This document shows positions 305-58,312 of a stretch of 64,000 nt of DNA, piece after piece. Source of the DNA: a virus; the UHGV virus genome UHGV-1430452, one strand, 5' to 3'. Both the position numbers and the translations under genes were made by a program. Under the pieces are notes generated by a model, which did no database searches, was not told the origin of the DNA, and was given only the letters and a program-made list of their open reading frames with translations. Position 1 is the stretch's first letter; each line of letters starts with the position of its first letter.

Positions 305-3300
305 TTACTTCACTCCTTTCAAATACTTAGATACTGTCGATGTAGAAACTCCCATCTTCTTAGCAATCTGTTCAAGTGTATAGTTAGATGCAGCCATTGC
401 TTTAGCTCTACTAACTTGTGCACTGCTTAGACTGTTGGTTAGTCTAGGAGTTGCTCGTTCTCTAAGGTTATCGATGTCTGTTGTGTTAAGGATTCTCTTA
501 AGCTGATTCTCACTAACAGCACCAGCTTGTATAGCTTCCCATTCTTTGTCACTGATCTCTATGTTACGATCTCTTCTAGAGATAGAGCCAACCTCTTGTC
601 TATACTTATTCAACGCCTGTTGGCTAAGCTTTCTCAACGGTTCTCCTTTAAGCTCTTCACCATGTTCTTCAAGGTAAGCCTTCTTCTTAGCTGCTATCTC
701 GGAATTAGCTTTTCGTTGAGCAGTTCTTTCTTTAATCTTATTGAGATCTGACTTATCGACTCTCTCCATTAAAGACTTAACCTCATCTCTATACGCAGCC
801 TTAGCACTTGCTGTTGTTTCGATCTTTCCTGTGTTAGCCATAGCTAATCTAGCTTTGTTACCAAGAGCTTTCATCTCATTAGCGTAGTCCGCATAGATAA
901 GTTCCATAGGATGTCTAGCTTTAGATACTAATTTATAAGCATCATCAGTCTCAGCCATCTTAGTACTTTGCTGCATACGGGTTTTAGTACGATATGTAAT
1001 ATCACCAGCGGCATTAGTATAGGTTACTTTCCCAGTGACGGGGTCTTTTTTCTCAATAGGGTTATACCTTTCGTAAGCTGCCTTATCTTTGGGATCATAT
1101 TCAATCTTCTTGCCATCAGCTGTTCGCACGGTAATAAGACCGGTCTTCTTATCTCGTTTTCTATCGACATAATATAGATCGTCGGCCTTCTTCCAAAGCT
1201 TGGCTCCATCTGGTTTGGTGGGGTCATAATCTTTACTACCTGGGATGTTTATTTTATATGAGCCTTGTCTTTTCTCAACTGAATATTGTCCCTTTGATCT
1301 TGATAAAATGGTAGAAGCTCCACCTGATCTTTCATTTCCGTCATCGTCAATACGAACCTGATACTTCTTTTTAAGTGCAGCAATATTGTTATCTATCTCA
1401 CTTTGTTTGTAATCAAGATGATGTTTCTCAGCATCAATAACAACCATGCTATGCTTAACTGCTCTTGCCAATTCTTTTTCATCAGCTCCAGCTAAAGTCA
1501 TATCAGTAATAAGATTGGATACAACACCCATCTGAGTTCCAGTGTTTTTCATGATGGGATATGCTTTTCCATTACGATAATAACGAACATTACCATCTGC
1601 ATCCTTCTTAGCAACACCACCATATTCAACCTTAGGATCAAATCCTTCAAGATCTTCAAGAGGTCGCTTATTAAGAATTTTTACCTTTCCACCTGGATCA
1701 TTGGTAGGAATACACATAACAGTATCGCCATCAAAGTCTGCACCTGAAAGCTGATCAGCAATCTTATGATTAATGCCGACTGCATCGATACTTTGTTTGC
1801 CAATTATTTTATCTCCCAGTGGATTCTTATTGTTAACTGTTAAGATAGGAATTTCAAATCGTCCGCCATGAGGATAACGAATAAGAGCGAGCTTAGTTCC
1901 ACTCTCGTAGTTTGGAGCATATACTTCATTGTCTTTTAAAGAGTTTATTGGAATAATAACGTGGTACTTCTGTCCAGGTAACGCTGCTGCTTTTAAATGT
2001 ACAGCCGCTGCATCGCAGCTATCTGCAAATTTCTCAAGCATATGTTTCTTAATAGTAGGATTAGTAATAGACATATACTCATCAAACTCAGCAAACTTAT
2101 CTTTCTTAGCAAGATCTAACTGTTTCTTAGCTAGAGTCTGTGACTGTTTAGCCAGGAACTGAGATGGTAATGCGTCCTGCCAATCATCCCAATCTCCTTC
2201 ATCGGATCTCTTATTAATGAGACCTAATTTCTTCTTACCGGTCTTAGGATCGTCATACCAATACTGTCCACCCTTGTCAGCATCTTTTATAAGAGAGCCA
2301 AATGGATTGTCTGGATCATCTTTCTTAATATTTTTAAGAACCGTACTTGTTTTATCGCCTAAAGCTGGAGTACCTTTTTTCTTATTCGTATTAAATATGA
2401 CATCTACTCCATCAGGCATGTTGTCAGAATATACTGCCATACCTTTAAGATAATGAGTTCCATCTACAAGAATACGAACCTGTGAATATCGTGAATCACC
2501 GAGATCAAGATCTTTACATCCTCTGCGAAGTTCAATGATACCGTCCTTATCAATACCCTTAAATCCATCAGCACCGACATCGTCTGCATATCGAACCATT
2601 AAACGTTTTGAATCAAGACTTGCAGGATATGTAAACTTCTTCTGGAATGTATCTCCTCCGTCTATTGATTCATAATCGTTAATTGTCTTTACTCTATCGT
2701 AGTCGTAGATTTCTTTATGTGCCGTTCCTGGTTTACAAAGAACTTTCTGGATGGTCTGTTGTCCTTTTGTATTTATCTGAGGAATACCACCAGTATACAC
2801 AGGATAACCTTCTGCTTTCTGTAAGTAATCAAGAGCAGTATTCAATCGTTCTTTGGATATGCCAAGAGATTTTTCAACACCAGCTGTTACATCGATCATA
2901 CCTTTTTGATCAACATGCTCTCGCAGAAAATCTACAGTCTCCATTGCCTGATGCATACGGTCTTCAGACTTAGGATTAAGAAGAGACCTTACTGTGGACT
3001 CTGGAATACCCATTTCTCTACCGATGGCAGTTGCTCCAAGTCCATCTTCTTTTAAAGATTTAGCTCTAGCTACCTGTTGTAATCTTTCTTCATAACCAGC
3101 CCAACTAATCTGCCTTCTATATTCTGTAGTTGTTAAGTCCATGGATTTAGCTATCGCATTATCTCCGGTCCAGGTCTTACCATTATCATCAGTGTAAGTA
3201 AAACCGGCTTTCTTAAGCTCTTTAACTCTTGCGAGGAAATCGGAACCATGTTGGTATCTATCTTTTCCACTTCCATAAGGATACCTACCGCTGCGGCGAG

Positions 3301-3475
3301 GCATACCATAATGCATAAGTTCATCTTCATTCGCGCTGTCTAAGCGATCAGACCAACCAAAATAAGAAAGGATCTCGTCAGCAACGGTGAACTCTTCATC
3401 GCTGTGCTCAAGATCCTCTTCTCCAAATATAGATTCTACAAGTTCGTTCAACGGAGGTTTCTCTAAGAACTCCAT
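305..3475 (-). CDS. large RNA polymerase-like protein (1056 aa): beta-prime-type double-psi beta-barrel motif ADFDGD preceded by IRYPHGGRFEIP; C-terminal HTH
   Basis: ADFDGD hexamer identical to multisubunit RNAP beta-prime NADFDGD; upstream R-x-P-H...F-E-P resembles the beta-prime NRxPTLHR...FEP block; HTH TLEQIAKKMGVSTSTVSKYLKG at C-terminus; start overlaps upstream stop with in-frame GAGGAGG. Confidence 0.85.
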   Translation of the reverse strand: MEFLEKPPLNELVESIFGEEDLEHSDEEFTVADEILSYFGWSDRLDSANEDELMHYGMPRRSGRYPYGSGKDRYQHGSDFLARVKELKKAGFTYTDDNGKTWTGDNAIAKSMDLTTTEYRRQISWAGYEERLQQVARAKSLKEDGLGATAIGREMGIPESTVRSLLNPKSEDRMHQAMETVDFLREHVDQKGMIDVTAGVEKSLGISKERLNTALDYLQKAEGYPVYTGGIPQINTKGQQTIQKVLCKPGTAHKEIYDYDRVKTINDYESIDGGDTFQKKFTYPASLDSKRLMVRYADDVGADGFKGIDKDGIIELRRGCKDLDLGDSRYSQVRILVDGTHYLKGMAVYSDNMPDGVDVIFNTNKKKGTPALGDKTSTVLKNIKKDDPDNPFGSLIKDADKGGQYWYDDPKTGKKKLGLINKRSDEGDWDDWQDALPSQFLAKQSQTLAKKQLDLAKKDKFAEFDEYMSITNPTIKKHMLEKFADSCDAAAVHLKAAALPGQKYHVIIPINSLKDNEVYAPNYESGTKLALIRYPHGGRFEIPILTVNNKNPLGDKIIGKQSIDAVGINHKIADQLSGADFDGDTVMCIPTNDPGGKVKILNKRPLEDLEGFDPKVEYGGVAKKDADGNVRYYRNGKAYPIMKNTGTQMGVVSNLITDMTLAGADEKELARAVKHSMVVIDAEKHHLDYKQSEIDNNIAALKKKYQVRIDDDGNERSGGASTILSRSKGQYSVEKRQGSYKINIPGSKDYDPTKPDGAKLWKKADDLYYVDRKRDKKTGLITVRTADGKKIEYDPKDKAAYERYNPIEKKDPVTGKVTYTNAAGDITYRTKTRMQQSTKMAETDDAYKLVSKARHPMELIYADYANEMKALGNKARLAMANTGKIETTASAKAAYRDEVKSLMERVDKSDLNKIKERTAQRKANSEIAAKKKAYLEEHGEELKGEPLRKLSQQALNKYRQEVGSISRRDRNIEISDKEWEAIQAGAVSENQLKRILNTTDIDNLRERATPRLTNSLSSAQVSRAKAMAASNYTLEQIAKKMGVSTSTVSKYLKGVK

Positions 3476-4511: not shown

Positions 4512-4530
4512 GCCTATTATAAAGAAAAGA

Positions 4531-4733
4531 GAAAAATAGACTTTTCTCTCATAAAAGGGCAAGAAAATTTCGTGAATAGGGTGTGTACTTTTATATGTAA
4601 ATTTAGATAAGACCGGGAGCCATGAAGGACATCCCGGTACGTTCCAAAAATATAAATAGAAAGAAAATAGACCATCTCTCTATAAAAGGGTCAGAAATTT
4701 TCGTGAATAGGGTGTGTACTTTTTATATGTAAA
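4531..4733. repeat. two copies of a ~72-bp direct repeat (4531..4603 and 4663..4733), each containing a variant promoter-like motif (ctcataaaaggg...ttcgtgaata) and separated by a 7-bp-arm hairpin
   Basis: near-identical strings read directly; hairpin ACCGGGA-N13-TCCCGGT between copies. Confidence 0.8.
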
Positions 4734-9902: not shown

Positions 9903-9928
9903 GAAAAAGAGAGAAGAAGTATATCTCA

Positions 9929-10052
9929 GCTACACGTTTCTCTGCATCCATTTAAAGACACATTCACTGGTCAGTTCCAGTCCCACTAATATACTTTGAT
10001 GCTACACGTTTCTCCATACATAAGTATGTTCACTGGTCAGTTCCAGTCCCAC
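9929..10052. repeat. tandem direct repeat (2 units, period ~72 bp): GCTACACGTTTCTC ... TTCACTGGTCAGTTCCAGTCCCAC
   Basis: both blocks recur exactly; each has the hairpin ACTGG-N6-CCAGT; lies between two promoter-like motifs. Confidence 0.8.
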
Positions 10053-10072
10053 ATCAACTTTTATTCTTCTCT

Positions 10073-10100
10073 CATAATATAAAATGTATTTTTCGCGAAT
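10073..10100 (-). promoter_or_regulatory. conserved promoter-like motif copy, directly after a terminator-like hairpin
   Basis: cataatataaaatgtatttttcgcgaa. Confidence 0.5.
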
Positions 10101-21524: not shown

Positions 21525-21998
21525 TTAAATATAGTCCAATATGTTTCCATCCACATTGAAGTCTAATAATGCCGTATTCTTATAACCATTGATAAAATCG
21601 AAATTACATTCATTCATTAAACCAAAATCTACGAAATTGTCTCCAATAGGATTCTCCTCGTCATAAACCCAGCCAACAACTGCTCCTGCTTTTGTTCTCG
21701 GAATGCCTAACGTATCGTAGACATCATTCAGAAATAAATGTCCTCTTGATCTCAGCAAAACATTACAATATTTCTGCTGATCTTTCAAAAAGTTCATATT
21801 ATACTCTGGATCTTTAATCCACCCAATACAGCTATCATCGAAAAACCTAGCATATTGACTAAAGTTTTCGGTTTTGTCAACCCTGTTTCCTGGATACTCT
21901 TCTTCTGATTTCAGATTGAATAATTTCTTTAATTCCTCATCATCAATTTCAATAGTTACATTAATCTTCATAATTATTCTCCTTTCAAATATAAACAT
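21525..21998 (-). CDS. hypothetical protein (157 aa) sharing a ~110-aa domain with the C-terminus of 44029..44967
   Basis: FFDDSCIGWIKDPEYNMNFLKDQQKY...GDNFVDFG...LLDFNVDGNIL aligns by eye with 44029 C-terminus. Confidence 0.7.
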   Translation of the reverse strand: MFIFERRIIMKINVTIEIDDEELKKLFNLKSEEEYPGNRVDKTENFSQYARFFDDSCIGWIKDPEYNMNFLKDQQKYCNVLLRSRGHLFLNDVYDTLGIPRTKAGAVVGWVYDEENPIGDNFVDFGLMNECNFDFINGYKNTALLDFNVDGNILDYI

Positions 21999-25966: not shown

Positions 25967-27535
25967 CTATTTAGCCAAGCCCCTTTCGTTTAGTGCATCC
26001 TCAACTGCGGAATATCGATCTGAGTTAAGTTGCTCTAATAAGCACTCTAGCGGATCGGTGTTATTACTAAGCACCATATTGGTAATAATCGGACTAAATC
26101 CACTTACTAAAGCAACTCCTAGATCGTTCTCTTTTACTGGGATGGTTCCTGTTCTGCTACAAATGTTCCAGAATATCAATCTAGGAAGTTTATAGCCGTA
26201 CTGAGAGTAACGATCTGATATCGTATTAAACAGTGTTTTACTCGGTCTGATATTGCTCCATCTTGAACCTCCTTCGCAACTAGCACAGCTATCAAATTCC
26301 ATATCTGATAAGATAAGTATGTTTTTAGGAATGTCGTTCTGTGACATGTTATTGTTGATTGCTGTTTTGAGAATAAGTTCAAATACAGCTTCGATGTTTG
26401 TGTTAGCCACCTCGTTGTATCTCCTGGCAATTTCGATCTTTTCTCTCAAAGATTCTCCGTTACTAAGATCTACTAAACGAGGATTCATGCTGAATGTAAT
26501 ATATTTGTCTCTGAATTCACCAGAACTTCTTTCAGAAAAATATATTGCAAGAGCATTGGCTACCTCTAAAGCTGTTACACTTGTTCCGCCGACAGGACAG
26601 TCCATACTACCCGATCCGTCCGCAACGCAAATTGTGTTACCGTCTCCGTTTACATAATCGGGAAGTGCTTTCCACAATTCTTCAAGTGTAATGTCATCTT
26701 TACCTTTGAGTTTATTCCCGTACCAAAATTCACCCCGATCAAAGTATTTATGTACAATATCATGCGGGAATAGTACACCAGCATTGATTTTCGTCTCGCC
26801 TTTCTGCAAACTCGCTAAGTAACTACTTCTCCTTTCCTCATCGTTCTTCATAAACGCATTACCATATATAATATTGGCTCTTGATGGAACCGCAGAATAA
26901 TCAATCTTTGACCATTCTTTCTTACACATACTAACTTCCACAACTTTTAAATATGCACGAAGATCCGAAAGCATTTTACGATAGGATTTCTCGTTAATAA
27001 ATAACTTCTGAATCATAAGACGTGCTAGTCGTTTTGTCTCTTTAGACGAAGTGTTTGCAGACGGCATCCATTTAGCTAATAAAGAAATAGGCTCTCCTAG
27101 AGATCTCTTCCTTATATCACTTGTCAACTGTGTAGATACAATTGATACAACGTAGTCTGAAACGTCAGTGTCTAATAAACACCATAAATCATCCCATCTA
27201 CCGTATTCCGGAACCAACGGAATGATTGCCTTTGATATATCGGCATGTTTTTCGGATAGATACTTAAGACAATATCTGAATAATCTTCTTTCTCCGAGAC
27301 CTTCTCGTACATCTCTGGCATAGAACAACCACTTGATAGCAAGCTGTTTGTTTTCGTAGAATGTCTTTACAAACTTGTCTACGATTTCTCCCTCGTCCAT
27401 ATTTCGCATGGATGTTACTGAAAAGTTGATGTCAAGAAGTTCTTTACCAGTAGTACGGTAACCAACTGCTCCATTTTCAGTAAGGCTTGTGTTGAATTCA
27501 TCATTGATTGTTTCTTTCAGATTGTTCATAAACAT
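25967..27535 (-). CDS. vWA-domain protein with MIDAS motif (522 aa); possibly TROVE/Ro60-like or DUF2828-type
   Basis: ICVADGSGSM is a DxSxS MIDAS motif; helical N-terminal region; family assignment tentative. Confidence 0.7.
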   Translation of the reverse strand: MFMNNLKETINDEFNTSLTENGAVGYRTTGKELLDINFSVTSMRNMDEGEIVDKFVKTFYENKQLAIKWLFYARDVREGLGERRLFRYCLKYLSEKHADISKAIIPLVPEYGRWDDLWCLLDTDVSDYVVSIVSTQLTSDIRKRSLGEPISLLAKWMPSANTSSKETKRLARLMIQKLFINEKSYRKMLSDLRAYLKVVEVSMCKKEWSKIDYSAVPSRANIIYGNAFMKNDEERRSSYLASLQKGETKINAGVLFPHDIVHKYFDRGEFWYGNKLKGKDDITLEELWKALPDYVNGDGNTICVADGSGSMDCPVGGTSVTALEVANALAIYFSERSSGEFRDKYITFSMNPRLVDLSNGESLREKIEIARRYNEVANTNIEAVFELILKTAINNNMSQNDIPKNILILSDMEFDSCASCEGGSRWSNIRPSKTLFNTISDRYSQYGYKLPRLIFWNICSRTGTIPVKENDLGVALVSGFSPIITNMVLSNNTDPLECLLEQLNSDRYSAVEDALNERGLAK

Positions 27536-44028: not shown

Positions 44029-44967
44029 TCAAATCATGTTGAGAATATCCCCATCCACATTGAAATCAAGAAGAATAGTTCTCTCATAACCGTTCACGAA
44101 GTTACGATTTGCCTCGTTGTAAGTGTTATAGATTCCGAAATCTACGAAATTATCACCTACTGGATGTTTCTCGTCATAAATCCATCCAACAATCTGACCT
44201 GCCTGTGTACGCGGGATTCCGAGCATATCATATACTTCATTCAGGAACAGATGACCTTTCGTTTTCAACATGTCATTTGCATAACGCTGCTGATCTTTAA
44301 GGAACATTAGATTGAATTCAGGATCTTTAGTCCATCCTGTACATCCATCATCGAAGAATTTAGCATAATCGCTGTAACTGTCGAGAGTTGCTACATTTGC
44401 TGTTTTCTTAACAGTAGTTTCTGTACCATCTTCATTTACAACAGTCTCTTCGATTTCTTTTGCTTTGATGTTGTACTTCAGTTCTTTATCAAGCTCTTCA
44501 CCAAATCTCTCAATAACACGACCACGATATTCCTTGAAGCCTTTGTCAATAGTTGCATAAGCGGCTGCAAGTGCTAAGTTACGTTTACGAAGAATATGAT
44601 GACCACTAAGAATAGCAGCGATAGAAACTGTTCCAAGGATTACTGCTGGAGCATAAAGTTTTGCTACCTTTACGGCTGTTTGAGTATACATGATAGTTAA
44701 ATCTTTCTTACCATCTTCTTCTGTGTACTCTTTACCTTCTGGAACCATATCTGGATTTTCCATAAATTCATGAATTTTCTCGATTTTTTCTTTTGGCTCA
44801 GCGAGCACCTCATCGAGTTTAGTAGTTGCTTTACATGCCATTACAGCAGAGCCAACTACACCAACAATACCTGCGCCAACCAAGATTTCAGGGCTATGCT
44901 TTTTAAATTTAAAACCTACACGATGGAGGCTTCTAGTTACTGTGTTCATAATTTCTAATTTTGCCAT
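44029..44967 (-). CDS. two-TM-anchored modular protein (312 aa), paralog family A (N-terminal domain shared with 47042 and 49330; C-terminal domain shared with 21525)
   Basis: N-terminal ...PEILVGAGIVGVVGSAVMACKAT... and C-terminal FFDDGCTGWTKDPEFNLMFLKDQQRY blocks. Confidence 0.75.
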   Translation of the reverse strand: MAKLEIMNTVTRSLHRVGFKFKKHSPEILVGAGIVGVVGSAVMACKATTKLDEVLAEPKEKIEKIHEFMENPDMVPEGKEYTEEDGKKDLTIMYTQTAVKVAKLYAPAVILGTVSIAAILSGHHILRKRNLALAAAYATIDKGFKEYRGRVIERFGEELDKELKYNIKAKEIEETVVNEDGTETTVKKTANVATLDSYSDYAKFFDDGCTGWTKDPEFNLMFLKDQQRYANDMLKTKGHLFLNEVYDMLGIPRTQAGQIVGWIYDEKHPVGDNFVDFGIYNTYNEANRNFVNGYERTILLDFNVDGDILNMI

Positions 44968-47041: not shown

Positions 47042-47869
47042 TTAATAGTAGCTATCGAAACCATATTCCGGAGGCATCAGATGATCAATAACAATACACG
47101 GTTCATTATCTTCCGTAATTTGAGCACTATATCTCACATCGATTTTGCCTTTATCGATTCTCCAACCGATGCTATTACCAACTTCGGTATGCTTAAGACC
47201 AATTTCGTCATAGAAATCATTCAGAGAAATATACATCTCGTTACCGTTGATCATTCTCTCATTAAGAGTAAGAACAGCATTTTTAATCTTGTCGATATCC
47301 GATCTGAAATATCTGTCGGAATGACTGTCATAACACAACGTGTTACCTTTACCTGTCATGATAATCTGAGTGTCTGCAACCGGATGTTCTTCAACTTGCT
47401 TCTTAGCGACTTTATCTCTGATGTTATTTTCCTTCTTCTCTCCGATAGTCTCTACCACTTTCTCTCTGTAGTCAGACAGTGCTGTTGTAGATAACTGATA
47501 TGCTGTTGCCAATGCTGCGTTACGTCTTACATGTACGGAATTAGCACCGATAAGACAAGCGACTGACGCAATGCCAGTGATAGCTGCTGGAATATAAGGT
47601 TTCCAAGCTGCTTTTACTGTTTCGACAGGTGTGAGATTTAAAGCGTTTCTTTCGTCTTCTTCTGTGAAAATACCGCCTTCATGAGCTTCTTTCTCTTTAA
47701 ACTTCTTCTCTTCCTCGATTAACTCCATAGCTTTTGGTGTTGCTTTTACTGCAAGCACAACAGTAGATATCATACCTGCGATACCAATGCCAGTAAGAAT
47801 TTCCGGACTGCGTTTTTTCATTACATATTTTGCAGTGTTTAAAAATTTTGTTACATTTGGTTTGTTCAT
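47042..47869 (-). CDS. two-TM-anchored modular protein, paralog family A (275 aa)
   Basis: N-terminal domain aligns with 44029 and 49330. Confidence 0.75.
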   Translation of the reverse strand: MNKPNVTKFLNTAKYVMKKRSPEILTGIGIAGMISTVVLAVKATPKAMELIEEEKKFKEKEAHEGGIFTEEDERNALNLTPVETVKAAWKPYIPAAITGIASVACLIGANSVHVRRNAALATAYQLSTTALSDYREKVVETIGEKKENNIRDKVAKKQVEEHPVADTQIIMTGKGNTLCYDSHSDRYFRSDIDKIKNAVLTLNERMINGNEMYISLNDFYDEIGLKHTEVGNSIGWRIDKGKIDVRYSAQITEDNEPCIVIDHLMPPEYGFDSYY

Positions 47870-47957: not shown

Positions 47958-48029
47958 AGAAACAGTGTAGGACTCGAACCCACAACCTACAGATATAAGT
48001 CTGTTGCTCTACCAATTGAGCTAACTGTT
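47958..48029 (-). tRNA. tRNA with atypical anticodon loop, probable anticodon TAT (Ile)
   Basis: acceptor AAACAGT/ACTGTTT, D-arm GCTC-AATTGGTA-GAGC, T-loop TTCGAGT; anticodon stem ACAG/CTGT with loop containing CTTATAT (6 or 8 nt by hand). Confidence 0.6.
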
Positions 48030-48034
48030 TCTTC

Positions 48035-49140: not shown

Positions 49141-49349
49141 GTGTAATGGATATGCTCATTGTTTAATTCGTCGAGATGTTTAATAAAATCTAAATATCTT
49201 TTATTTCGTCTATTCTCCACAAAGTTTATAACTAACCAAGCAATCCCTACGATAGGCAAGCCAACGAATACTAATAGAAATAGTAAGCATGTAATCATAG
49301 AAACAAGCGTATTCATAAATCTTCTCCTTTCAATACTCTTCGTAATCAA
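49134..49349 (-). CDS. small membrane protein (71 aa)
   Basis: two hydrophobic segments; track start may overextend into the motif. Confidence 0.55.
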   Translation of the reverse strand: MITKSIERRRFMNTLVSMITCLLFLLVFVGLPIVGIAWLVINFVENRRNKRYLDFIKHLDELNNEHIHYTR

Positions 49350-50106
49350 TGAACGGCTCTGTGAAATCTACAATATAACATTCAATACCGTCGTCCATTT
49401 CTACTTTTGTATGGTGGAAATATAGCCAACCATCCCAGTACATTTCATACATCTGAGCTGCGGACCAACCCATAAATTCACCGTAATCCTGTCGATCAAT
49501 CTCTAGTAAATCGTAATAATCGTTTAAAGATGCACCACCGGATTGAGATAGCATTTTATTAATCTCATACTCTGCTCTCAATTGAGTTTCTTTCGTCACA
49601 CGGTAATAACGTTTGGAATATTCATCGTAGAATAGTGTTTTGCCATCCTCGTATTCGTCGTCATATTCTTCTTTGTCTTCTTCCTCGTAATGGTCTTTTG
49701 CTACAGCAGCACGAATGAGTTTGTCTCCGTCTTCACCATATAACTTTTTAACTTTGTTTTTGTACTCTTTGTGAGTTTGGTCTAGTAAGGCATAAGCAGA
49801 TGCGATGGCTGCTTGGGAATGTTTGTTTAATAGATTCGCGCCAAATATGCAAGCTAGGGTTCCTGTTCCAATCAATAAGGAAGGAATATATGTTGGTCCT
49901 GCTACTCGAATAGTCTCCCATTTTGTTAATTCATCTCCTTTCTCTTCTTCAGCTAGTTCAATAAGTTCCATTGCTTTCGGAGTAGCTTTAACCGCCATTA
50001 CAGCTGTACCTACCACTCCGGCAGCTCCTAATACTGTTAATATAGTAGAGCTGTTTTTCTTTACGAATCTTTTCGAAACTGTTAGTAAGTCATTCATTTC
50101 CAGCAC
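49330..50106 (-). CDS. two-TM-anchored modular protein, paralog family A (258 aa)
   Basis: N-terminal domain aligns with 44029 and 47042. Confidence 0.75.
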   Translation of the reverse strand: MLEMNDLLTVSKRFVKKNSSTILTVLGAAGVVGTAVMAVKATPKAMELIELAEEEKGDELTKWETIRVAGPTYIPSLLIGTGTLACIFGANLLNKHSQAAIASAYALLDQTHKEYKNKVKKLYGEDGDKLIRAAVAKDHYEEEDKEEYDDEYEDGKTLFYDEYSKRYYRVTKETQLRAEYEINKMLSQSGGASLNDYYDLLEIDRQDYGEFMGWSAAQMYEMYWDGWLYFHHTKVEMDDGIECYIVDFTEPFIDYEEY

Positions 50107-50218
50107 GCTCCTTGGCGATAAATTTGGTAAAAATAAAAAGAGAAAGAAAAGAGTCAGCTTGTTGTGTAAACCAAGTCTAACTCAATTCTTTTTGTCATTA
50201 TCCGAAATAACAATATCC

Positions 50219-50245
50219 CATAACAGGTGATGTAATTTTCGCGAA
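50219..50245 (-). promoter_or_regulatory. conserved promoter-like motif copy
   Basis: cataacaggtgatgtaattttcgcgaa. Confidence 0.55.
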
Positions 50246-50248
50246 TCC

Positions 50249-50479
50249 CTACTGCTCAAAAAATAAAACTACATCTACCGGATCTTTGAAGTGCTGCTCC
50301 TCCACTACTTCTTTAAATTCTTCAAATGATTCCGGTTCGTATTCTTGTAAATATAAAATCTGTTCAAGCAATCTTCCGTAAAATCCTTGAGAATTAGATA
50401 GCATTTTTACCACACCAATGACTTGTTCAACATCATAACCGTCTGCTTTCTTTTCCATAGCGTTTGCCATTTTGAACAC
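50249..50479 (-). CDS. hypothetical acidic protein (76 aa)
   Basis: SD AAAGGAG; preceded by long structured leader. Confidence 0.65.
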   Translation of the reverse strand: MFKMANAMEKKADGYDVEQVIGVVKMLSNSQGFYGRLLEQILYLQEYEPESFEEFKEVVEEQHFKDPVDVVLFFEQ

Positions 50480-50648
50480 TCCTTTAATTGGTTTTTGATA
50501 AAAATAAAAAGAGAATACAATGACTTCAGGGTCGGCCCAACGAAAACCGTTGCCCGGTGGGTAGCATGTTTTATTACGTTATTACGTGCCGCTACGCCTT
50601 CGTGTCTCACCACTGGATTTCCACCAGTATCTATCCATTGCTTTCTCT
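50480..50648 (-). ncRNA. candidate structured 5' leader / cis-regulatory RNA (~165 nt, GC-rich) between promoter motif and start of 50249..50479
   Basis: hairpins ACTGG-N7-CCAGT and CAACG-N5-CGTTG, followed by U-rich tract just upstream of the SD. Confidence 0.35.
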
Positions 50649-50675
50649 CATAATAGGTGATGTAATTTTCGCGAA
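50649..50675 (-). promoter_or_regulatory. conserved promoter-like motif copy (consensus match)
   Basis: cataataggtgatgtaattttcgcgaa. Confidence 0.55.
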
Positions 50676-50702
50676 TAGAAAAAGAAAATGCCTAGTTTTT
50701 AA

Positions 50703-50966
50703 CTAGACAAATTCTTTAATAATTATTGTTCCACCAACTACATCGATTTTTATTTTATTCATCGCTTTCAACATACTAGCCACTTTTTGCACTGGTAACT
50801 TACTTGTGAAACCATAGAACACCAAGTCGCCCATGGTATATACATGCCCTACTGAATACTTAACTTCAATATCGGCTGTATATTTGCCAAGGCAATCCAT
50901 TGCTCCTAAATTTTTCACAACTTCGTTTTTATTCGCGCATAAAGTAATTTCATATTTAGTAAACAT
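50703..50966 (-). CDS. hypothetical protein (87 aa)
   Basis: SD AAGGAGGA; motif upstream. Confidence 0.65.
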   Translation of the reverse strand: MFTKYEITLCANKNEVVKNLGAMDCLGKYTADIEVKYSVGHVYTMGDLVFYGFTSKLPVQKVASMLKAMNKIKIDVVGGTIIIKEFV

Positions 50967-51001
50967 ATAAATTCCTCCTTATTCGATTTCATTGTTTTTC
51001 T

Positions 51002-51028
51002 CATAATAGGTGATGTAATTTTCGCGAA
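51002..51028 (-). promoter_or_regulatory. conserved promoter-like motif copy
   Basis: cataataggtgatgtaattttcgcgaa, identical to 50649 copy. Confidence 0.55.
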
Positions 51029-51050
51029 AACAAAAGAGAAAGGGCCCATG

Positions 51051-51191
51051 TTACTGAGCCACTTTCGCTTTCTTATGATTTTTAACTGCTTTCTTAGAAA
51101 CCTCTACTGCTTTATTCACTGCATCACTTGCCAAACTACCGACTACCAATCCGCCAGCAATCTCAATAATGTGTCTAACTAAAACATTCAT
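51051..51191 (-). CDS. small glycine-zipper membrane protein (46 aa)
   Basis: missed by track; SD AGGAGGAA; IIEIAGGLVVGSLAS. Confidence 0.5.
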   Translation of the reverse strand: MNVLVRHIIEIAGGLVVGSLASDAVNKAVEVSKKAVKNHKKAKVAQ

Positions 51192-51227
51192 TTTAGATTC
51201 CTCCTGTTAAGCAATTTATTATCTTTC

Positions 51228-51256: not shown

Positions 51257-51285
51257 AAAAGAAAAGACACCGTGTTTCAGGTGCC
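51257..51285 (-). terminator. rho-independent terminator directly followed by promoter motif
   Basis: stem GGCACC/GGUGUC (G-U) then UUUUCUUUU. Confidence 0.6.
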
Positions 51286-51512
51286 TAATCCTCTGAATCA
51301 ACCATTTGTTCAATTTTCAGTAATACTTTCTGATCAATTTCTCCATCCGCATTGATATGAAATCGTATTTTACCATCCTTCATCTCAGCTTCTATCTCAC
51401 TAATACGGATGTCTGGTTTGACTCCAATATTTTTGTATATAGCTCTAGATATAAGTTTGGCTACCATACCTCTCATAAATCTAGTAGATAATTTAATTTT
51501 CATTTCGTCCAT
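51285..51512 (-). CDS. hypothetical protein (75 aa)
   Basis: co-directional ORF. Confidence 0.65.
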   Translation of the reverse strand: MDEMKIKLSTRFMRGMVAKLISRAIYKNIGVKPDIRISEIEAEMKDGKIRFHINADGEIDQKVLLKIEQMVDSED

Positions 51513-56052: not shown

Positions 56053-56649
56053 ATGACAATAGGACAAAAAATAAAAGAATTACGCAATCAACTTAATATG
56101 TCGGTGGATGATCTTGCTGTGAAACTGGGTAAGAACCGTGCGACTATCTACCGCTATGAACGAGGAGATATCGAGAACCTCCCTCTCGATGTACTAGAAC
56201 CATTAGCAAATGCTCTTGAGACCACACCTGGTTATTTAATGGGATGGGAAGAAACTACGAAAAAGAAAGAGCCTTCAATTATCGATGAAGTTACCATGGG
56301 TGACGTTTTTAAAGCGTTACGTCTAGGAAGTAATTTATCGATAGAGGAATTTTCGCATGAGATTGGATTATCTGCCCAAGACATAAGCAATTATGAAGCA
56401 GGAAAGACTCCTATACCTGTAAATATAATTAATCTTGTTGCTGATTTCTTTGGCATATCAATAGCGGAAATAGTTAAGGCACACAAAAACAGCGAAAATA
56501 GAACGCCTTCTGGTTTCGAAATGAAAAAGGAACGATTTGAACGTTTTAAAGTTTGGAATAAAGAGTTTGGACGAATACATTTTACTGATGAAGAAATCAA
56601 TAAAATAATGGAATATACAAGGTTCTTACTTAGCCAAAGAAGACAGTAA
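56053..56649 (+). CDS. XRE-family transcriptional regulator with two HTH domains (198 aa), CI-like
   Basis: HTHs LNMSVDDLAVKLGKNRATIYRYERG and LSIEEFSHEIGLSAQDISNYEAG; SD AAAGGAG. Confidence 0.8.
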   Translation: MTIGQKIKELRNQLNMSVDDLAVKLGKNRATIYRYERGDIENLPLDVLEPLANALETTPGYLMGWEETTKKKEPSIIDEVTMGDVFKALRLGSNLSIEEFSHEIGLSAQDISNYEAGKTPIPVNIINLVADFFGISIAEIVKAHKNSENRTPSGFEMKKERFERFKVWNKEFGRIHFTDEEINKIMEYTRFLLSQRRQ

Positions 56650-56734
56650 GTCTACATAGGTTTACTCTATTTAAAGGAGGTGATGCCTGAATTCAGTTCA
56701 TCGTAGAATTTACATCAAAGGAAAGGTGGAACCA

Positions 56735-58312
56735 ATGACAACGTTTGATATGAACAACGCTGTAGACAATGCGTTCGGTATGGACGTATATGCTATCTAT
56801 CTTCGGAAAAGTCGAGCCGATGTAGAAGCAGAAAAACTTGGAGAAGGAGAAACACTAGCAAGGCATAGAAAGATACTAACAGAACTTGCTGCTAGAAAAG
56901 GATTGTATATCGGTAAGATTTACGAGGAAATTGTATCTGGTGAAACAATCGAAGCTAGACCTGAAATACAAAAACTGATAGAAGATTGTTATAAAGGGAA
57001 ATATAGAGGAATCCTAATAGTAGAAGTTACTCGTCTATCTCGTGGTAATCAAGGAGACGCTCAAAAAATACTCGACTGTCTCAAATATTCGAATAGAAAC
57101 AATGGTGTATTAGTTATCACTCCTACTAAGACTTATGACGTTGCACACAGCCAAGAAGACGAAGAATATATGGAGTTTGAATTGTTTATGTCTCGTCGAG
57201 AATATAAGATGATTCAAAAGCGTATGGATCGTGGCCGTAAACAAGCAGTCGTAGAAGGAAACTTCATGGGTAGTTACCGTCCCTATGGATATGACATCTT
57301 AAAAACCAAGACCGGACGAACACTTATACCGAATGAAGATGAAGCTCCTATCGTGAAAATGATTTACGAATGGACAGTTAACGATAATTTATCTCCTTTC
57401 AAGATAGCTGAGCGTTTAACTAATATGGGTGTTCCTACTTATTATGGTGAGAAGGATTGGTCTAAAGAAACAGTTAAAACCATTTTGACGAATCAGACAT
57501 ACATGGGTAAAGTTCGTTGGAATGATCGAATGACTGTTAAGACTATGGTCGACGGAGAACTTAAAGCTACACGACCTCGTTCAAATCATTCCGATCACTT
57601 CATGCTATATGATGGAAAACATATGAAACACGCACTCGTCGACGAAGAAACATTCAAAGCAGCCTCCTCTCGCTTTCATAACGATAGGACAAGATCAAAT
57701 CTAAAACTTGTTAATCCTCTTGCAGGACTTCTATTTTGTAAGAAATGTGGTAAATCTATGGGTTATCAATCATATAGACATAAGAAAAACGGACCAATGG
57801 ATCGATACAATCATAGACAGTCTGCTAATGGATGCAAGGTTAAGTCAGCAGTTGCTGAGGATGTTATAAAAGCTGTTATACATGCTTTGAAACTTTATAT
57901 AGAAGATTTCGAATTTAAGTTAGACAACACTCCAGATGTTGACGAAAATTCAATCAATACGCAGCTCGAAGCTTTACAAAAAGAAATACGAAAATCCGAA
58001 CGAAAACTTGCTAAGCTATTCGATTCTTGGGAAGATGAGAAGATAACAGATAATGAATTTGTTCAAAGGAAAGCCGTCCATAATCAGAAGATAGAAAATA
58101 TAAAGAGGCAAATGGAAGAACTCGAATATTCGATACCAGAAAGAGAAGAATATGAGGATAAAATAATATTGCTGTCTGAAGCACTTGTCGCTATCACAGA
58201 CGAATCGCTTGACGCAGATATTAAGAACGAGTATCTTAAAAGAATCATTGATAGAATAGAGTTTAGTAGAGAGAATAACTCAGAGTTTATACTAGATATA
58301 GACTTATGCTAA
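56735..58312 (+). CDS. large serine recombinase (phage integrase)
   Basis: N-terminal YAIYLRKSRAD catalytic-Ser motif, zinc ribbon CKKCGKS...C, C-terminal coiled coil; start moved to ATG with SD AAAGGTGGA. Confidence 0.85.
   Translation: MTTFDMNNAVDNAFGMDVYAIYLRKSRADVEAEKLGEGETLARHRKILTELAARKGLYIGKIYEEIVSGETIEARPEIQKLIEDCYKGKYRGILIVEVTRLSRGNQGDAQKILDCLKYSNRNNGVLVITPTKTYDVAHSQEDEEYMEFELFMSRREYKMIQKRMDRGRKQAVVEGNFMGSYRPYGYDILKTKTGRTLIPNEDEAPIVKMIYEWTVNDNLSPFKIAERLTNMGVPTYYGEKDWSKETVKTILTNQTYMGKVRWNDRMTVKTMVDGELKATRPRSNHSDHFMLYDGKHMKHALVDEETFKAASSRFHNDRTRSNLKLVNPLAGLLFCKKCGKSMGYQSYRHKKNGPMDRYNHRQSANGCKVKSAVAEDVIKAVIHALKLYIEDFEFKLDNTPDVDENSINTQLEALQKEIRKSERKLAKLFDSWEDEKITDNEFVQRKAVHNQKIENIKRQMEELEYSIPEREEYEDKIILLSEALVAITDESLDADIKNEYLKRIIDRIEFSRENNSEFILDIDLC

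What the first reader, a model, noticed from the sequence alone, without database searches (positions are those of the whole stretch)
50480..50678. Long GC-rich structured leader with attenuator-like hairpin and U-tract upstream of gene 50249..50479
Between the promoter motif (50649..50675) and the SD of the downstream gene lies a ~165-nt untranslated region with far higher GC than its surroundings, containing hairpins ACTGG-N7-CCAGT and CAACG-N5-CGTTG followed by a U-rich tract. This suggests a riboswitch-like or attenuator element, or an independent sRNA. The ACTGG...CCAGT hairpin also occurs twice in the 9929..10052 repeat.
Basis: inference. Interest (0 to 1): 0.55.

Follow-up and report, generated by a model that had tools for sequence, protein, structure and literature searches.

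The report
Conserved stand-alone phage small RNA gene
The "structured leader" is a self-contained, highly conserved small-RNA gene with its own promoter and terminator, carried by many gut Oscillospiraceae phages, often inside tRNA gene arrays; it matches no described RNA family and its function is unknown.

Summary
The GC-rich untranslated stretch is real, but it is not a leader specific to gene 50249..50479. On the minus strand, a phage-type promoter (TTCGCGA-N13-TATTAT, 50650-50675) drives a ~135-150 nt RNA. Its 5' and 3' ends pair (P1), and a U tract (50498-50510) follows directly.

Pattern scans found 114-115 occurrences (42 distinct sequences) in gut viral contigs, metagenomes and Oscillospiraceae/Eubacteriales prophages. 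The 108-nt core is 87-100% identical to the window's copy. Yet 69 of 87 loci with long flanks share no flank similarity with the window.

Covariation supports a four-helix junction: 17 pairs change on both sides and 95.9% of cells are paired. No shuffle, and no slid control, reached these values. The CAACG/CGTTG hairpin is disfavoured.

Contexts differ widely. Most copies are followed by another promoter; others are fused to tRNA or tRNA-like genes. No Rfam 15 family reaches threshold. There is only a ~16-bit AdoCbl resemblance, limited to a T-loop-type hairpin.

In this window the 73-aa gene has no promoter of its own, so it can only be expressed by terminator read-through. Best reading: a cassette-like, probably trans-acting, stable phage RNA of unknown function.

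The parts
50689..50709 (-). Terminator-like hairpin plus T tract that ends the upstream gene (50703..50966); marks the upstream boundary of the cassette.
   Evidence: stem of 9 pairs, then TTTTCTTTTT; sequence.
50650..50675 (-). Phage-type promoter TTCGCGA-N13-TATTAT, followed by the initial transcribed sequence GAGAGAA.
   Evidence: Three further exact copies of the 21-mer core, plus one near copy, against 0 expected by chance. There are 9 regex matches, all on the coding strand, each after a terminator and before a gene or tRNA-like gene. That it acts as a promoter is inferred.
50498..50649 (-). Inferred transcription unit of the small RNA, from the start-site region to the end of the U tract.
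   Evidence: The ends are inferred; no transcript data are available.
50514..50645 (-). Match to covariance model R1 of the RNA family (132 positions); the only copy in the window.
   Evidence: 156.2 bits, E = 3.4e-42, model positions 1-132.
50634..50649 (-). P1, 5' strand (GAGAGAAAGCAAUGGA).
   Evidence: 7 of 10 counted P1 pairs change on both sides across the family.
50511..50524 (-). P1, 3' strand (GUCAUUGUAUUCUC), directly abutting the U tract.
50629..50633 (-). J1/2, UAGAU, nearly invariant.
50612..50628 (-). The loop has the UGRAAAU form that aligns to the AdoCbl model's CuGGUGaaAAUCCaG hairpin.
   Evidence: 3 of 5 pairs change on both sides, 99.5% paired; for the hairpin resemblance.
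50596..50611 (-). J2/3, GGUGAGACACGAAGGC, essentially invariant. GGUG may pair with CACC at 50556-50559 (P2.1; no covariation).
50561..50595 (-). P3 and P3a: long irregular hairpin (GUAGCGG..CAUGCUAC around ACGU-AAUA-ACGU) with a conserved A/U-rich internal loop.
   Evidence: 4 of 7 P3 pairs and 1 of 4 P3a pairs change on both sides. The four top-ranked mutual-information column pairs are 53-83, 54-82, 20-32 and 52-84; three of them are P3 pairs.
50556..50560 (-). J3/4, CCACC, invariant.
50529..50555 (-). P4: GGG-CAA-CGG-[UUUUCGUUGGG]-CCG-A-CCC.
   Evidence: CGG/CCG has A-U replacements in L027, L034 and L153. The rival hairpin is broken without compensation in L001, L027 and L034.
50525..50528 (-). 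J4/1, UGAA, nearly invariant (with G50524 it forms UGAAG).
50498..50510 (-). U tract (UUUUUAUUUUUAU) directly after P1; the inferred intrinsic terminator.
   Evidence: A U tract follows P1 in 59 of 65 distinct contexts.
50249..50485 (-). SD AAAGGAG (50479-50485) and the downstream 73-aa gene (ATG 50470 to stop at 50249). There is no promoter motif between the U tract and the SD.

Best explanation
The region is an autonomous small-RNA gene, an 'RNA moron' cassette, and not a leader belonging to the downstream gene.

Shown:
- A family of near-identical RNAs (108-nt core, 87-100% identical to the window's copy) occurs in more than 100 gut phage and prophage loci whose flanks are mostly unrelated.
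- The RNA folds into a four-helix junction (P1-P4). Helices covary and junctions are almost invariant.
- The wobble pairs fix the strand as the minus strand.

Inferred:
- A phage-specific promoter starts transcription a few bases before P1. This promoter is probably read by the phage's own YonO-like RNA polymerase, which carries a sigma-region-4-like HTH.
- The 3' end is set either by the P1 helix plus U tract acting as an intrinsic terminator (as in this window), or, in relatives, by tRNA-processing enzymes that cut at flanking tRNA or tRNA-like elements.
- The product is therefore a stable, compact ~135-nt RNA. It most likely acts in trans through its invariant junction core and a T-loop-type hairpin, by binding a conserved host or phage partner during infection (host takeover or counter-defence).
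- In this window only, transcripts that read through the terminator are the sole source of mRNA for the 73-aa gene. The terminator thus fixes the ratio of RNA to protein; nothing suggests this is a regulated switch.

The identity of the partner is unknown.
For: - Module boundaries: the promoter family is seen, and the upstream terminator.
- Family size: 6, then 38, viral loci, 7 Oscillospiraceae/Eubacteriales genomes and 69 metagenome contigs, all matching R1 at 93-167 bits.
- Conservation against flanks: the core is 87-100% identical to the window's in 114 loci, while 69 of 87 loci with at least 500-nt flanks share no flank similarity with the window.
- Structure: 95.9% of cells are paired and 17 pairs change on both sides. 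No shuffle of 500 reaches these values, and slid controls give 33-49% paired.
- Independent check: the five highest mutual-information column pairs are all predicted pairs, and RNAalifold agrees with the model.
- Strand: G-U pairs at 11-127 (40 of 42 sequences) and 56-80 (41 of 42) make sense only on the minus strand.
- Contexts: of 65 distinct contexts, at least 37 have the family promoter immediately upstream by the motif test. At least 7 by the T-loop motif, and about 17 by reading the flanks, lie directly after a tRNA or tRNA-like 3' end; in L154 the RNA starts 4 nt after tRNA-Leu. Eight have a tRNA-like element downstream, 6 of them directly with no U tract.
- Patchy distribution: at least 595 IMG/VR contigs encode the related RNA polymerase, but only about 38 carry the RNA.
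- Phage polymerase: phrog_4291 with a sigma-r4-like HTH.
Against: - There are no transcript data, so the promoter, the RNA ends and RNA stability are all inferred.
- No partner was identified and no protein neighbour is consistently linked to the RNA.
- The family is shallow: most of the core never varies. P2.1, the outer part of P4 and any tertiary contact are therefore untested by covariation.
- The extreme conservation could partly reflect recent horizontal spread rather than constraint.
- Single-sequence folding energy is not exceptional.
- In about 10 contexts, including this window, a gene follows the U tract with no promoter in between. A cis role cannot be excluded for those cases.
Confidence: 0.65

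Rival explanations
1. Cis-acting riboswitch or attenuator. A ligand or factor stabilises P1, which together with the U tract terminates transcription before the 73-aa gene. Without the ligand the polymerase reads through.
For: - The junction core is invariant, like an aptamer.
- P1 abuts a U tract.
- The downstream gene has no promoter here or in L001, L003, L020, L121 and L156.
- There is a weak AdoCbl-aptamer resemblance of 16-16.6 bits.
Against: - Most contexts place a new promoter directly after the U tract, or fuse the RNA to tRNA or tRNA-like genes with no U tract.
- Downstream genes are unrelated across loci.
- No alternative anti-terminator pairing was found.
- No riboswitch family reaches its threshold, and the window's own copy gives no hit at E<=10.
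- The AdoCbl score is at chance level (E about 1) and rests on one hairpin plus AAGUC.
Confidence: 0.1
2. Cis-acting processive antitermination RNA, like HK022 put or the Bacillus EAR element. The nascent RNA would modify the transcribing polymerase so that it reads through the many terminators of this region of small genes.
For: - The RNA lies immediately downstream of a promoter, in a region where every small gene is bracketed by a terminator and a promoter.
- Downstream genes depend on read-through.
Against: - A canonical terminator geometry (P1 plus U tract) ends the element itself.
- Many copies sit at the 3' end of tRNA units, or are followed at once by a fresh promoter.
- There was no Rfam hit at E<=10 other than the AdoCbl resemblance, so none to EAR.
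- The hypothesis was not tested directly.
Confidence: 0.08
3. A decayed or expanded tRNA gene, or simply a bulky terminator/insulator between cassettes, with no function of its own.
For: - It sits among tRNA-like genes, and in L002 it occupies the slot taken by a tRNA-like gene.
- The helices follow the order of a cloverleaf.
- P1 is built from the same GAGAAAC...GUUUCUC ends as the neighbouring tRNA-like genes.
Against: - A 108-nt core kept at 87-100% identity to the window's copy, with compensatory changes, across unrelated flanks is not what decay produces.
- The tRNA model gives no hit at E<=10, and ARAGORN finds nothing there.
- Simple terminators elsewhere in the window are short hairpins.
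Confidence: 0.07
4. A protein-coding or DNA-level feature: the 18-codon sense ORF (MDRYWWKSSGETRRRSGT), the antisense ORF 50423..50653, or a DNA hairpin site such as an origin or attachment site.
For: - A sense ORF with AUG and a double stop exists in the window.
- An antisense ORF is open in most loci.
Against: - The AUG is ACG in 10 of 42 distinct sequences, and there is no SD.
- Changes come as paired, structure-preserving substitutions, not with codon periodicity.
- The frequent G-U pairs would be A-C mismatches on the other strand or in a DNA duplex.
Confidence: 0.03

Closest known systems
Phage T4 stable RNAs species 1 and 2 (rnaC, rnaD) in the tRNA gene cluster
   Same: These are small RNAs (139 and 119 nt) annotated as stable, encoded next to phage tRNA genes and adjacent to tRNA-Arg in the T4 record. 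From my own knowledge, they are co-processed with the tRNAs and their function is still unknown. Their size, context and orphan status match the present RNA.
   Different: There is no sequence or structure relationship: R1 run with filters off gives no hit on rnaC or rnaD. rnaC ends in a canonical T arm, which the present RNA lacks. The host phylum and phage type also differ.
Bacterial and phage Y RNAs (YrlA), partners of Ro60/Rsr
   Same: The 5' and 3' ends form a long closing stem around a multi-branched, tRNA-like body. From my own knowledge, some phage examples lie near tRNAs. The window also encodes a DUF2828/DUF7788/vWA protein that PHROGs names 'RNA-binding protein'.
   Different: That protein is 23 kb away. 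Sixty-six loci around its homologues contain no copy of the RNA, and the two sets of contigs do not overlap. There is no T-loop-bearing tRNA-like domain and no Rfam YrlA hit.
Cobalamin (AdoCbl) riboswitch aptamer, Rfam clan CL00101
   Same: Both are built on a four-helix junction. P2/L2 (CUGG-UGRAAAU-CCAG) matches the model's CuGGUGaaAAUCCaG hairpin almost base for base, and AAGUC precedes the closing helix. From my own knowledge, that hairpin corresponds to P4-L4 of the aptamer, where it forms a T-loop.
   Different: The score is 16-16.6 bits against a gathering score of 50, with E about 1, and the window's own copy gives no hit. In the alignment, 52 nt of our RNA (most of J2/3 and P3) stand where the model has 10, and of the B12-box region only AAGUC matches. 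The RNA is not placed upstream of any consistent set of genes.
GOLLD and ROOL large RNAs of prophages
   Same: These are phage or prophage-borne structured RNAs of unknown function, often adjacent to tRNA genes (PMC12286853, and my own knowledge).
   Different: They are 4-6 times larger (about 600-800 nt) and form homo-oligomeric complexes (PMC12286853). No Rfam hit to them was found here.
Phage morons (independent promoter-gene-terminator cassettes)
   Same: The RNA is bounded by its own promoter and terminator, inserted between unrelated genes, and patchily distributed within a phage group.
   Different: From my own knowledge, classical morons encode proteins. Here the cargo is a structured RNA.

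Membership tests
Riboswitch (any class) | Match to a described aptamer family at its curated threshold | tested here: not met
   No match at gathering score over the whole window, and nothing relevant at E<=10 on 50150-50800. Relatives L009 and L011 give only AdoCbl at 16-16.6 bits, against a gathering score of 50.
Riboswitch (any class) | Consistent cis position in the 5' UTR of functionally related genes | tested here: not met
   Across 65 distinct contexts, most copies are followed by a new promoter or by tRNA-like genes, and the downstream genes are unrelated.
Riboswitch (any class) | Expression platform with mutually exclusive terminator and anti-terminator pairings | tested here: inconclusive
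   P1 plus a U tract is present in 59 of 65 contexts, but no conserved alternative pairing was found. The only pair of competing helices lies inside P4.
Riboswitch (any class) | Ligand binding | not testable with these tools
   Requires in-line probing, ITC or similar experiments.
Leader-peptide or protein-mediated transcription attenuator | Conserved leader ORF or factor-binding repeats coupled to alternative hairpins before one operon | tested here: not met
   The 18-codon ORF loses its AUG in 10 of 42 sequences. No repeats were seen, and there is no fixed downstream operon.
tRNA / tRNA-like (Rfam RF00005, ARAGORN) | Cloverleaf with D and T arms that scores against the tRNA model | tested here: not met
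   There is no tRNA hit at E<=10 in 50150-50800, and ARAGORN finds only the two other tRNA genes in the window. The four helices follow cloverleaf order, but there is no T-loop consensus.
tmRNA | tRNA-like domain plus a tag reading frame | tested here: not met
   ARAGORN reports no tmRNA, and there is no Rfam hit.
Y RNA / YrlA | Encoded next to a Ro60/Rsr orthologue | tested here: not met
   The only candidate (25967-27535, phrog_850) is 23 kb away. R1 finds nothing within 4 kb of 66 homologues of it.
Y RNA / YrlA | Ro-binding helix in the 5'/3' stem, and binding to Ro | not testable with these tools
   A closing stem exists, but no Ro-site model was available. There is no Rfam YrlA hit.
Cobalamin riboswitch | B12 box and conserved junction nucleotides; score at or above the gathering score | tested here: not met
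   In the alignments only the P4-L4-like hairpin and AAGUC match, and 52 nt of the RNA stand where the model has 10.
T4 species 1/2 RNAs | Sequence or structure homology | tested here: not met
   R1 run with filters off on the T4 tRNA region gives no hit on rnaC or rnaD.
Independent small-RNA gene (generic) | Own promoter and own 3'-end signal, conserved independently of its neighbours | tested here: met
   The promoter and terminator are identified by motif and position only.
Independent small-RNA gene (generic) | A discrete transcript is detected | not testable with these tools
   No expression data are available.

The most novel reading that the evidence does not exclude
The RNA is a new class of trans-acting phage effector RNA. 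It would be a compact four-way-junction fold with a T-loop module, expressed at a high level alongside an arsenal of non-canonical tRNA-like RNAs. It would work as a decoy or sponge, either for a host factor that recognises tRNA-shaped RNA (an anticodon nuclease or another RNA-targeting defence), or for a small molecule (a free-standing aptamer without an expression platform, for example for a corrinoid or an immune signalling nucleotide).
Probability: 0.2. Interest if true: 0.85.

Novelty: new variant of a known kind. Interest (0 to 1): 0.6.

Why it matters
- Structured RNAs carried by phages are few and mostly unexplained; T4 species 1 and 2, GOLLD and ROOL are examples.
- This one is short, extremely conserved and abundant in human-gut samples, and it is also present in cultured Oscillospiraceae lysogens. 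It is therefore experimentally tractable.
- It comes with a defined promoter type, a phage-encoded single-subunit RNA polymerase, and a set of tRNA-like genes with 6-, 8- and 18-nt anticodon loops.
- Together these point to an RNA-based host-takeover or counter-defence toolkit in a major group of gut phages.
- For annotation, it shows that 'long structured 5' UTRs' in these phages can be separate RNA genes whose terminators gate the next ORF.

Tried and rejected
- **Rfam.** I scanned the whole window at gathering thresholds, and the region plus two relatives at E<=10. Only sub-threshold AdoCbl hits appeared.
- **GenBank phages.** blastn of 49800-51200 found no match, so the RNA is absent from 50,697 deposited phage records.
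- **Ro/Y-RNA partnership.** I tested a link with the DUF2828/vWA 'RNA-binding protein'. There is no co-location and no shared contigs.
- **rRNA mimicry.** By eye the RNA resembles parts of 16S rRNA: positions about 693-740, and the UGAAGUC of the decoding site. The best local alignment to the E. coli rrn operon scores 22, against 21.2 +/- 2.1 for shuffles, which is chance. No Firmicute rRNA was available for a closer test.
- **T4 rnaC/rnaD.** No homology.
- **Kinship with the 9929-10052 repeat.** R1 does not match it, and the shared ACUGG/CCAGU is a variant of this window only, not the family consensus.
- **Homology with the L002 tRNA-like gene in the same slot.** The MAFFT similarity conflicts with the covariation-supported P1, so I dropped it.
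- **Coding.** Both the 18-aa sense ORF and the antisense ORF were rejected.
- **Neighbour-protein clustering.** No protein is consistently linked. DUF6353 genes often follow the RNA, but they are multi-copy in these phages.
- **Literature.** Searches for core sequence words and for tRNA-array RNAs found nothing specific.
- **L2-L4 kissing loop.** GRAAA with UUUUC is compatible in 98.6% of cells, but no compensatory change supports it. It is kept only as a possibility.

Full report
**What is in the sequence.** All genes around the finding lie on the minus strand. Read on that strand, the gene at 50703..50966 ends in a terminator-like hairpin with a T tract (50689-50709). The motif TTCGCGAAAATTACATCACCTATTAT follows at 50675-50650. 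After it comes about 170 nt without a plausible ORF, then AAAGGAG (50485-50479) and an ATG at 50470. GC reaches 0.45-0.48 at 50500-50650, against 0.27-0.37 on either side. The U tract (UUUUUAUUUUUAU) is at 50498-50510. The MFE fold pairs the very 5' end (GAGAGAA.GCAAUGG) with the sequence just before the U tract (UCAUUGU.UUCUCUU). The single-sequence energy is not exceptional, with z = -1.34.

**The promoter motif is a family.** The 21-mer core occurs at three more sites exactly, and once more with mismatches, where chance predicts none. The looser form TTCGYGA-N13-TATTAT-GAGA occurs nine times. All nine are on the coding strand, after a terminator, and before a gene or a tRNA-like gene. The spacing is not sigma-70-like. 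The window encodes a 1056-aa protein of phrog_4291, a YonO-type single-subunit RNA polymerase. PHROGs labels this family 'RNA-dependent RNA polymerase'; YonO-type is my reading of it. The protein has a C-terminal sigma-region-4-like HTH. That this polymerase reads these promoters is an inference.

**The element is a conserved, movable module.**
- Loci found through the downstream 76-aa protein gave one near-identical copy (L001). They also gave one phage (L002) that has a tRNA-like gene in the same slot.
- Exact-pattern scans with core words then found 6, and later 38, viral contigs.
- They also found 7 genomes of Oscillospiraceae, Eubacteriales or 'Clostridiales', including Muriventricola aceti and strain CCNA10.
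- A metagenome scan found 69 contigs, many labelled human gut.
- A covariance model built from 22 sequences (R1) scores all 69 metagenome copies at 93-167 bits. It finds exactly one copy in the window, at 50514-50645 (156 bits).
- In all there are 114-115 occurrences and 42 distinct sequences. The 108-nt core is 87-100% identical to the window's copy in every locus. Yet 69 of 87 loci with at least 500 nt on both sides share no detectable flank similarity with the window.
- None of the 50,697 GenBank phage records holds the RNA.

**Structure.** On the 42-sequence alignment I tested a four-helix junction made of these parts:
- P1, the 5'/3' closing stem;
- an invariant 4-bp P2.1;
- P3 and P3a, a long irregular hairpin;
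- P4, drawn as GGG..CCC plus CGG..CCG.

In this model 95.9% of cells are standard pairs and 17 pairs change on both sides. None of 500 shuffles reaches these values, and sliding the partners by 1-3 columns drops pairing to 33-49%. Without using the model, the five highest mutual-information column pairs are all predicted pairs. RNAalifold recovers the same helices.

The competing CGG/CCG pairing shows G-C to A-U replacements in L027, L034 and L153. Two G-U pairs are present in 40 and 41 of the 42 sequences, which fixes the functional strand as the minus strand. The junctions almost never vary. These are UAGAU, GGUGAGACACGAAGGC, CCACC and UGAAG.

**Contexts argue against a gene-specific leader.** I found 65 distinct flank combinations.
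- At least 37 have the family promoter immediately upstream by the motif test, and 59 have a U tract after P1.
- The U tract is usually followed at once by another promoter.
- At least 7 by the T-loop motif, and about 17 by reading the flanks, begin directly after a tRNA or tRNA-like 3' end. In L154 the RNA starts 4 nt after a tRNA-Leu(CAA).
- Eight have a tRNA-like element downstream. In six of these there is no U tract and the element follows directly; some of these minihelices lack an anticodon arm.
- The downstream genes differ. They include DUF6353-like genes, a homologue of window gene 51285..51512 (L121), and others.
- One copy (L125) carries a deletion of the 3' domain.

The related polymerase is found in at least 595 viral contigs, but the RNA in only about 38. 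The RNA is therefore an accessory, patchily distributed cassette.

**What this means in the window.** No promoter motif lies between the U tract and the SD of the next gene. The true start of that gene is ATG 50470, because the GTG at 50479 is out of frame in L002. The 73-aa gene can therefore be transcribed only by read-through of the RNA's terminator. The same layout recurs at two other places. The tRNA-like gene 47958-48031 is followed by a DUF6353 paralogue. The leader at 50107-50219 carries its own terminator-like hairpin before another paralogue. This is the sense in which 'attenuator' is partly right. It looks like a fixed partition between an abundant RNA and a less abundant mRNA, and nothing indicates a regulated switch.

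**Comparison with known families.**
- Rfam 15 gives nothing at threshold and nothing relevant at E<=10 for the window's copy.
- Two relatives give an AdoCbl-aptamer hit at 16-16.6 bits, where the gathering score is 50 and E is about 1. The hit rests on CUGG-UGRAAAU-CCAG, which matches the model's CuGGUGaaAAUCCaG hairpin, and on AAGUC. From my own knowledge this is the P4-L4 hairpin, which forms a T-loop in cobalamin riboswitches. I take this as a shared structural motif, not as family membership.
- tRNA and tmRNA models do not match.
- A Y-RNA/Ro partnership with the DUF2828/vWA protein (phrog_850) is not supported.
- Similarity to 16S rRNA is at chance level.
- The closest analogue in context is the pair of T4 stable RNAs, species 1 and 2, beside tRNA-Arg. 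They are not homologous.

**Mechanism and rivals.**
- Best supported: a stand-alone, stable small RNA made from a phage promoter. It is released by termination or by tRNA-type processing, and it acts in trans through an invariant junction core. What it binds is unknown. I favour a host or phage macromolecule that recognises compact tRNA-like shapes, for three reasons: the RNA sits among tRNA-like genes, it is an accessory element, and it lies in a region of small, individually transcribed genes.
- Rivals: a cis riboswitch or attenuator; a put/EAR-like antitermination RNA; a decayed tRNA or a mere terminator; and coding or DNA-level features. Each is scored in the rival-explanation list, and all are disfavoured by the context and covariation data.

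**Limits.**
- There are no expression data.
- Homologues were collected with exact-word patterns, so divergent members are missing. Much of the core is untested by covariation.
- The promoter and terminator assignments rest on motif recurrence and position only.

Noticed in passing
window 9905-10073 (minus strand): This is a second cassette of promoter, structured RNA and U tract. It holds two tandem ~66-nt units. Each unit has a variable closing stem, then UKGGG, a hairpin ACUGG/CCAGU with loop AACUGA, GAA, a variable hairpin, and GAGAAACGUGUAG. Another phage lineage (L184-L186) keeps the same plan with UACGG/CCGUA and different inner hairpins. There is no Rfam hit and it is not related to R1.
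   Followed up: partly
window 47958-48031 (minus strand); also L006:9513-9587, L131:1235-1308, L041:8461-8535, L133, L171, L120, L163, L007:10975-11067, L002:2848-2931: These are tRNA-like genes, each on its own phage promoter, with non-canonical anticodon loops. Loops are 6 nt (CUUAUA in the window), 8 nt (ARAGORN reports 4-base anticodons gaaa or aacc), or 18 nt and longer. The transcript start appears to coincide with the acceptor 5' end, a U tract follows the acceptor 3' strand, and no CCA is encoded.
   Followed up: partly
L002:1700-1750, L029, L027, L034:4485-4550, L119, L147: tRNA-like minihelices follow the RNA directly. They have an acceptor stem, a short D-like arm or another hairpin, and a T arm with GGUUCGAYUCC, but no anticodon arm. 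They could be RNase P-type 3'-end processing signals, as for MALAT1/mascRNA.
   Followed up: no
window 305-3475 (minus strand): A 1056-aa protein of phrog_4291 (a YonO-like single-subunit RNA polymerase; PHROGs labels the family 'RNA-dependent RNA polymerase') with a C-terminal sigma-70 region-4-like HTH. At least 595 relatives occur in IMG/VR. It is the likely reader of the TTCGCGA-N13-TATTAT promoters.
   Followed up: partly
window, minus strand, from-to: 51567-51542, 51254-51229, 51028-51003, 50675-50650, 50245-50220, 48062-48037, 24174-24149, 21009-20984, 10099-10074, 9901-9876: A phage promoter family, TTCGYGA-N13-TATTAT followed by GAGA. Each copy comes after a terminator hairpin with a T tract. 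Related phages use CCGCAGA-N12-TATTAT followed by GGA.
   Followed up: partly
window 49330-50106, 47042-47869, 44029-44967, 21525-21998 (minus strand): Four paralogues of DUF6353 (phrog_2152), a family of unknown function. In many relatives a DUF6353-like gene is the first gene after the RNA.
   Followed up: partly
window 50107-50219 (minus strand): The leader between promoter 50220-50245 (with TGTTAT as its -10) and the DUF6353 gene folds into two hairpins, and the second is followed by a long U tract. Its z-score is -3.59. It shares the CTCTTTTTATTTTTAYCAAA tail with the RNA's terminator.
   Followed up: partly
window 4512-4556 (minus strand): An 'empty' cassette lies just upstream of tRNA-Met. 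It consists of a promoter tail, GAGAGAAAAGUCUAUUUUUCUCU and a U tract, that is, a bare closing stem with no cargo.
   Followed up: no
window 25967-27535 (minus strand): A 522-aa DUF2828 + DUF7788 (+ weak vWA) protein of phrog_850, annotated 'RNA-binding protein'. It is widespread in other gut phages (66 loci) but is not linked to the RNA.
   Followed up: partly
L004:2491-2571: An Rfam RT-18 RNA (a reverse-transcriptase-associated motif, 45.7 bits) lies in one RNA-bearing phage, 5.5 kb upstream of the RNA.
   Followed up: no
L125:3908-4030: A natural deletion variant. The RNA is cut after GGGCAACGGTT and joined to the start codon of the next gene, removing P4, the 3' strand of P1, the U tract and the next promoter.
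   Followed up: no
window 56053-58312 (plus strand): A repressor-like regulator and a large serine recombinase lie on the opposite strand. The element is therefore a temperate phage or prophage, consistent with the genome hits.
   Followed up: no
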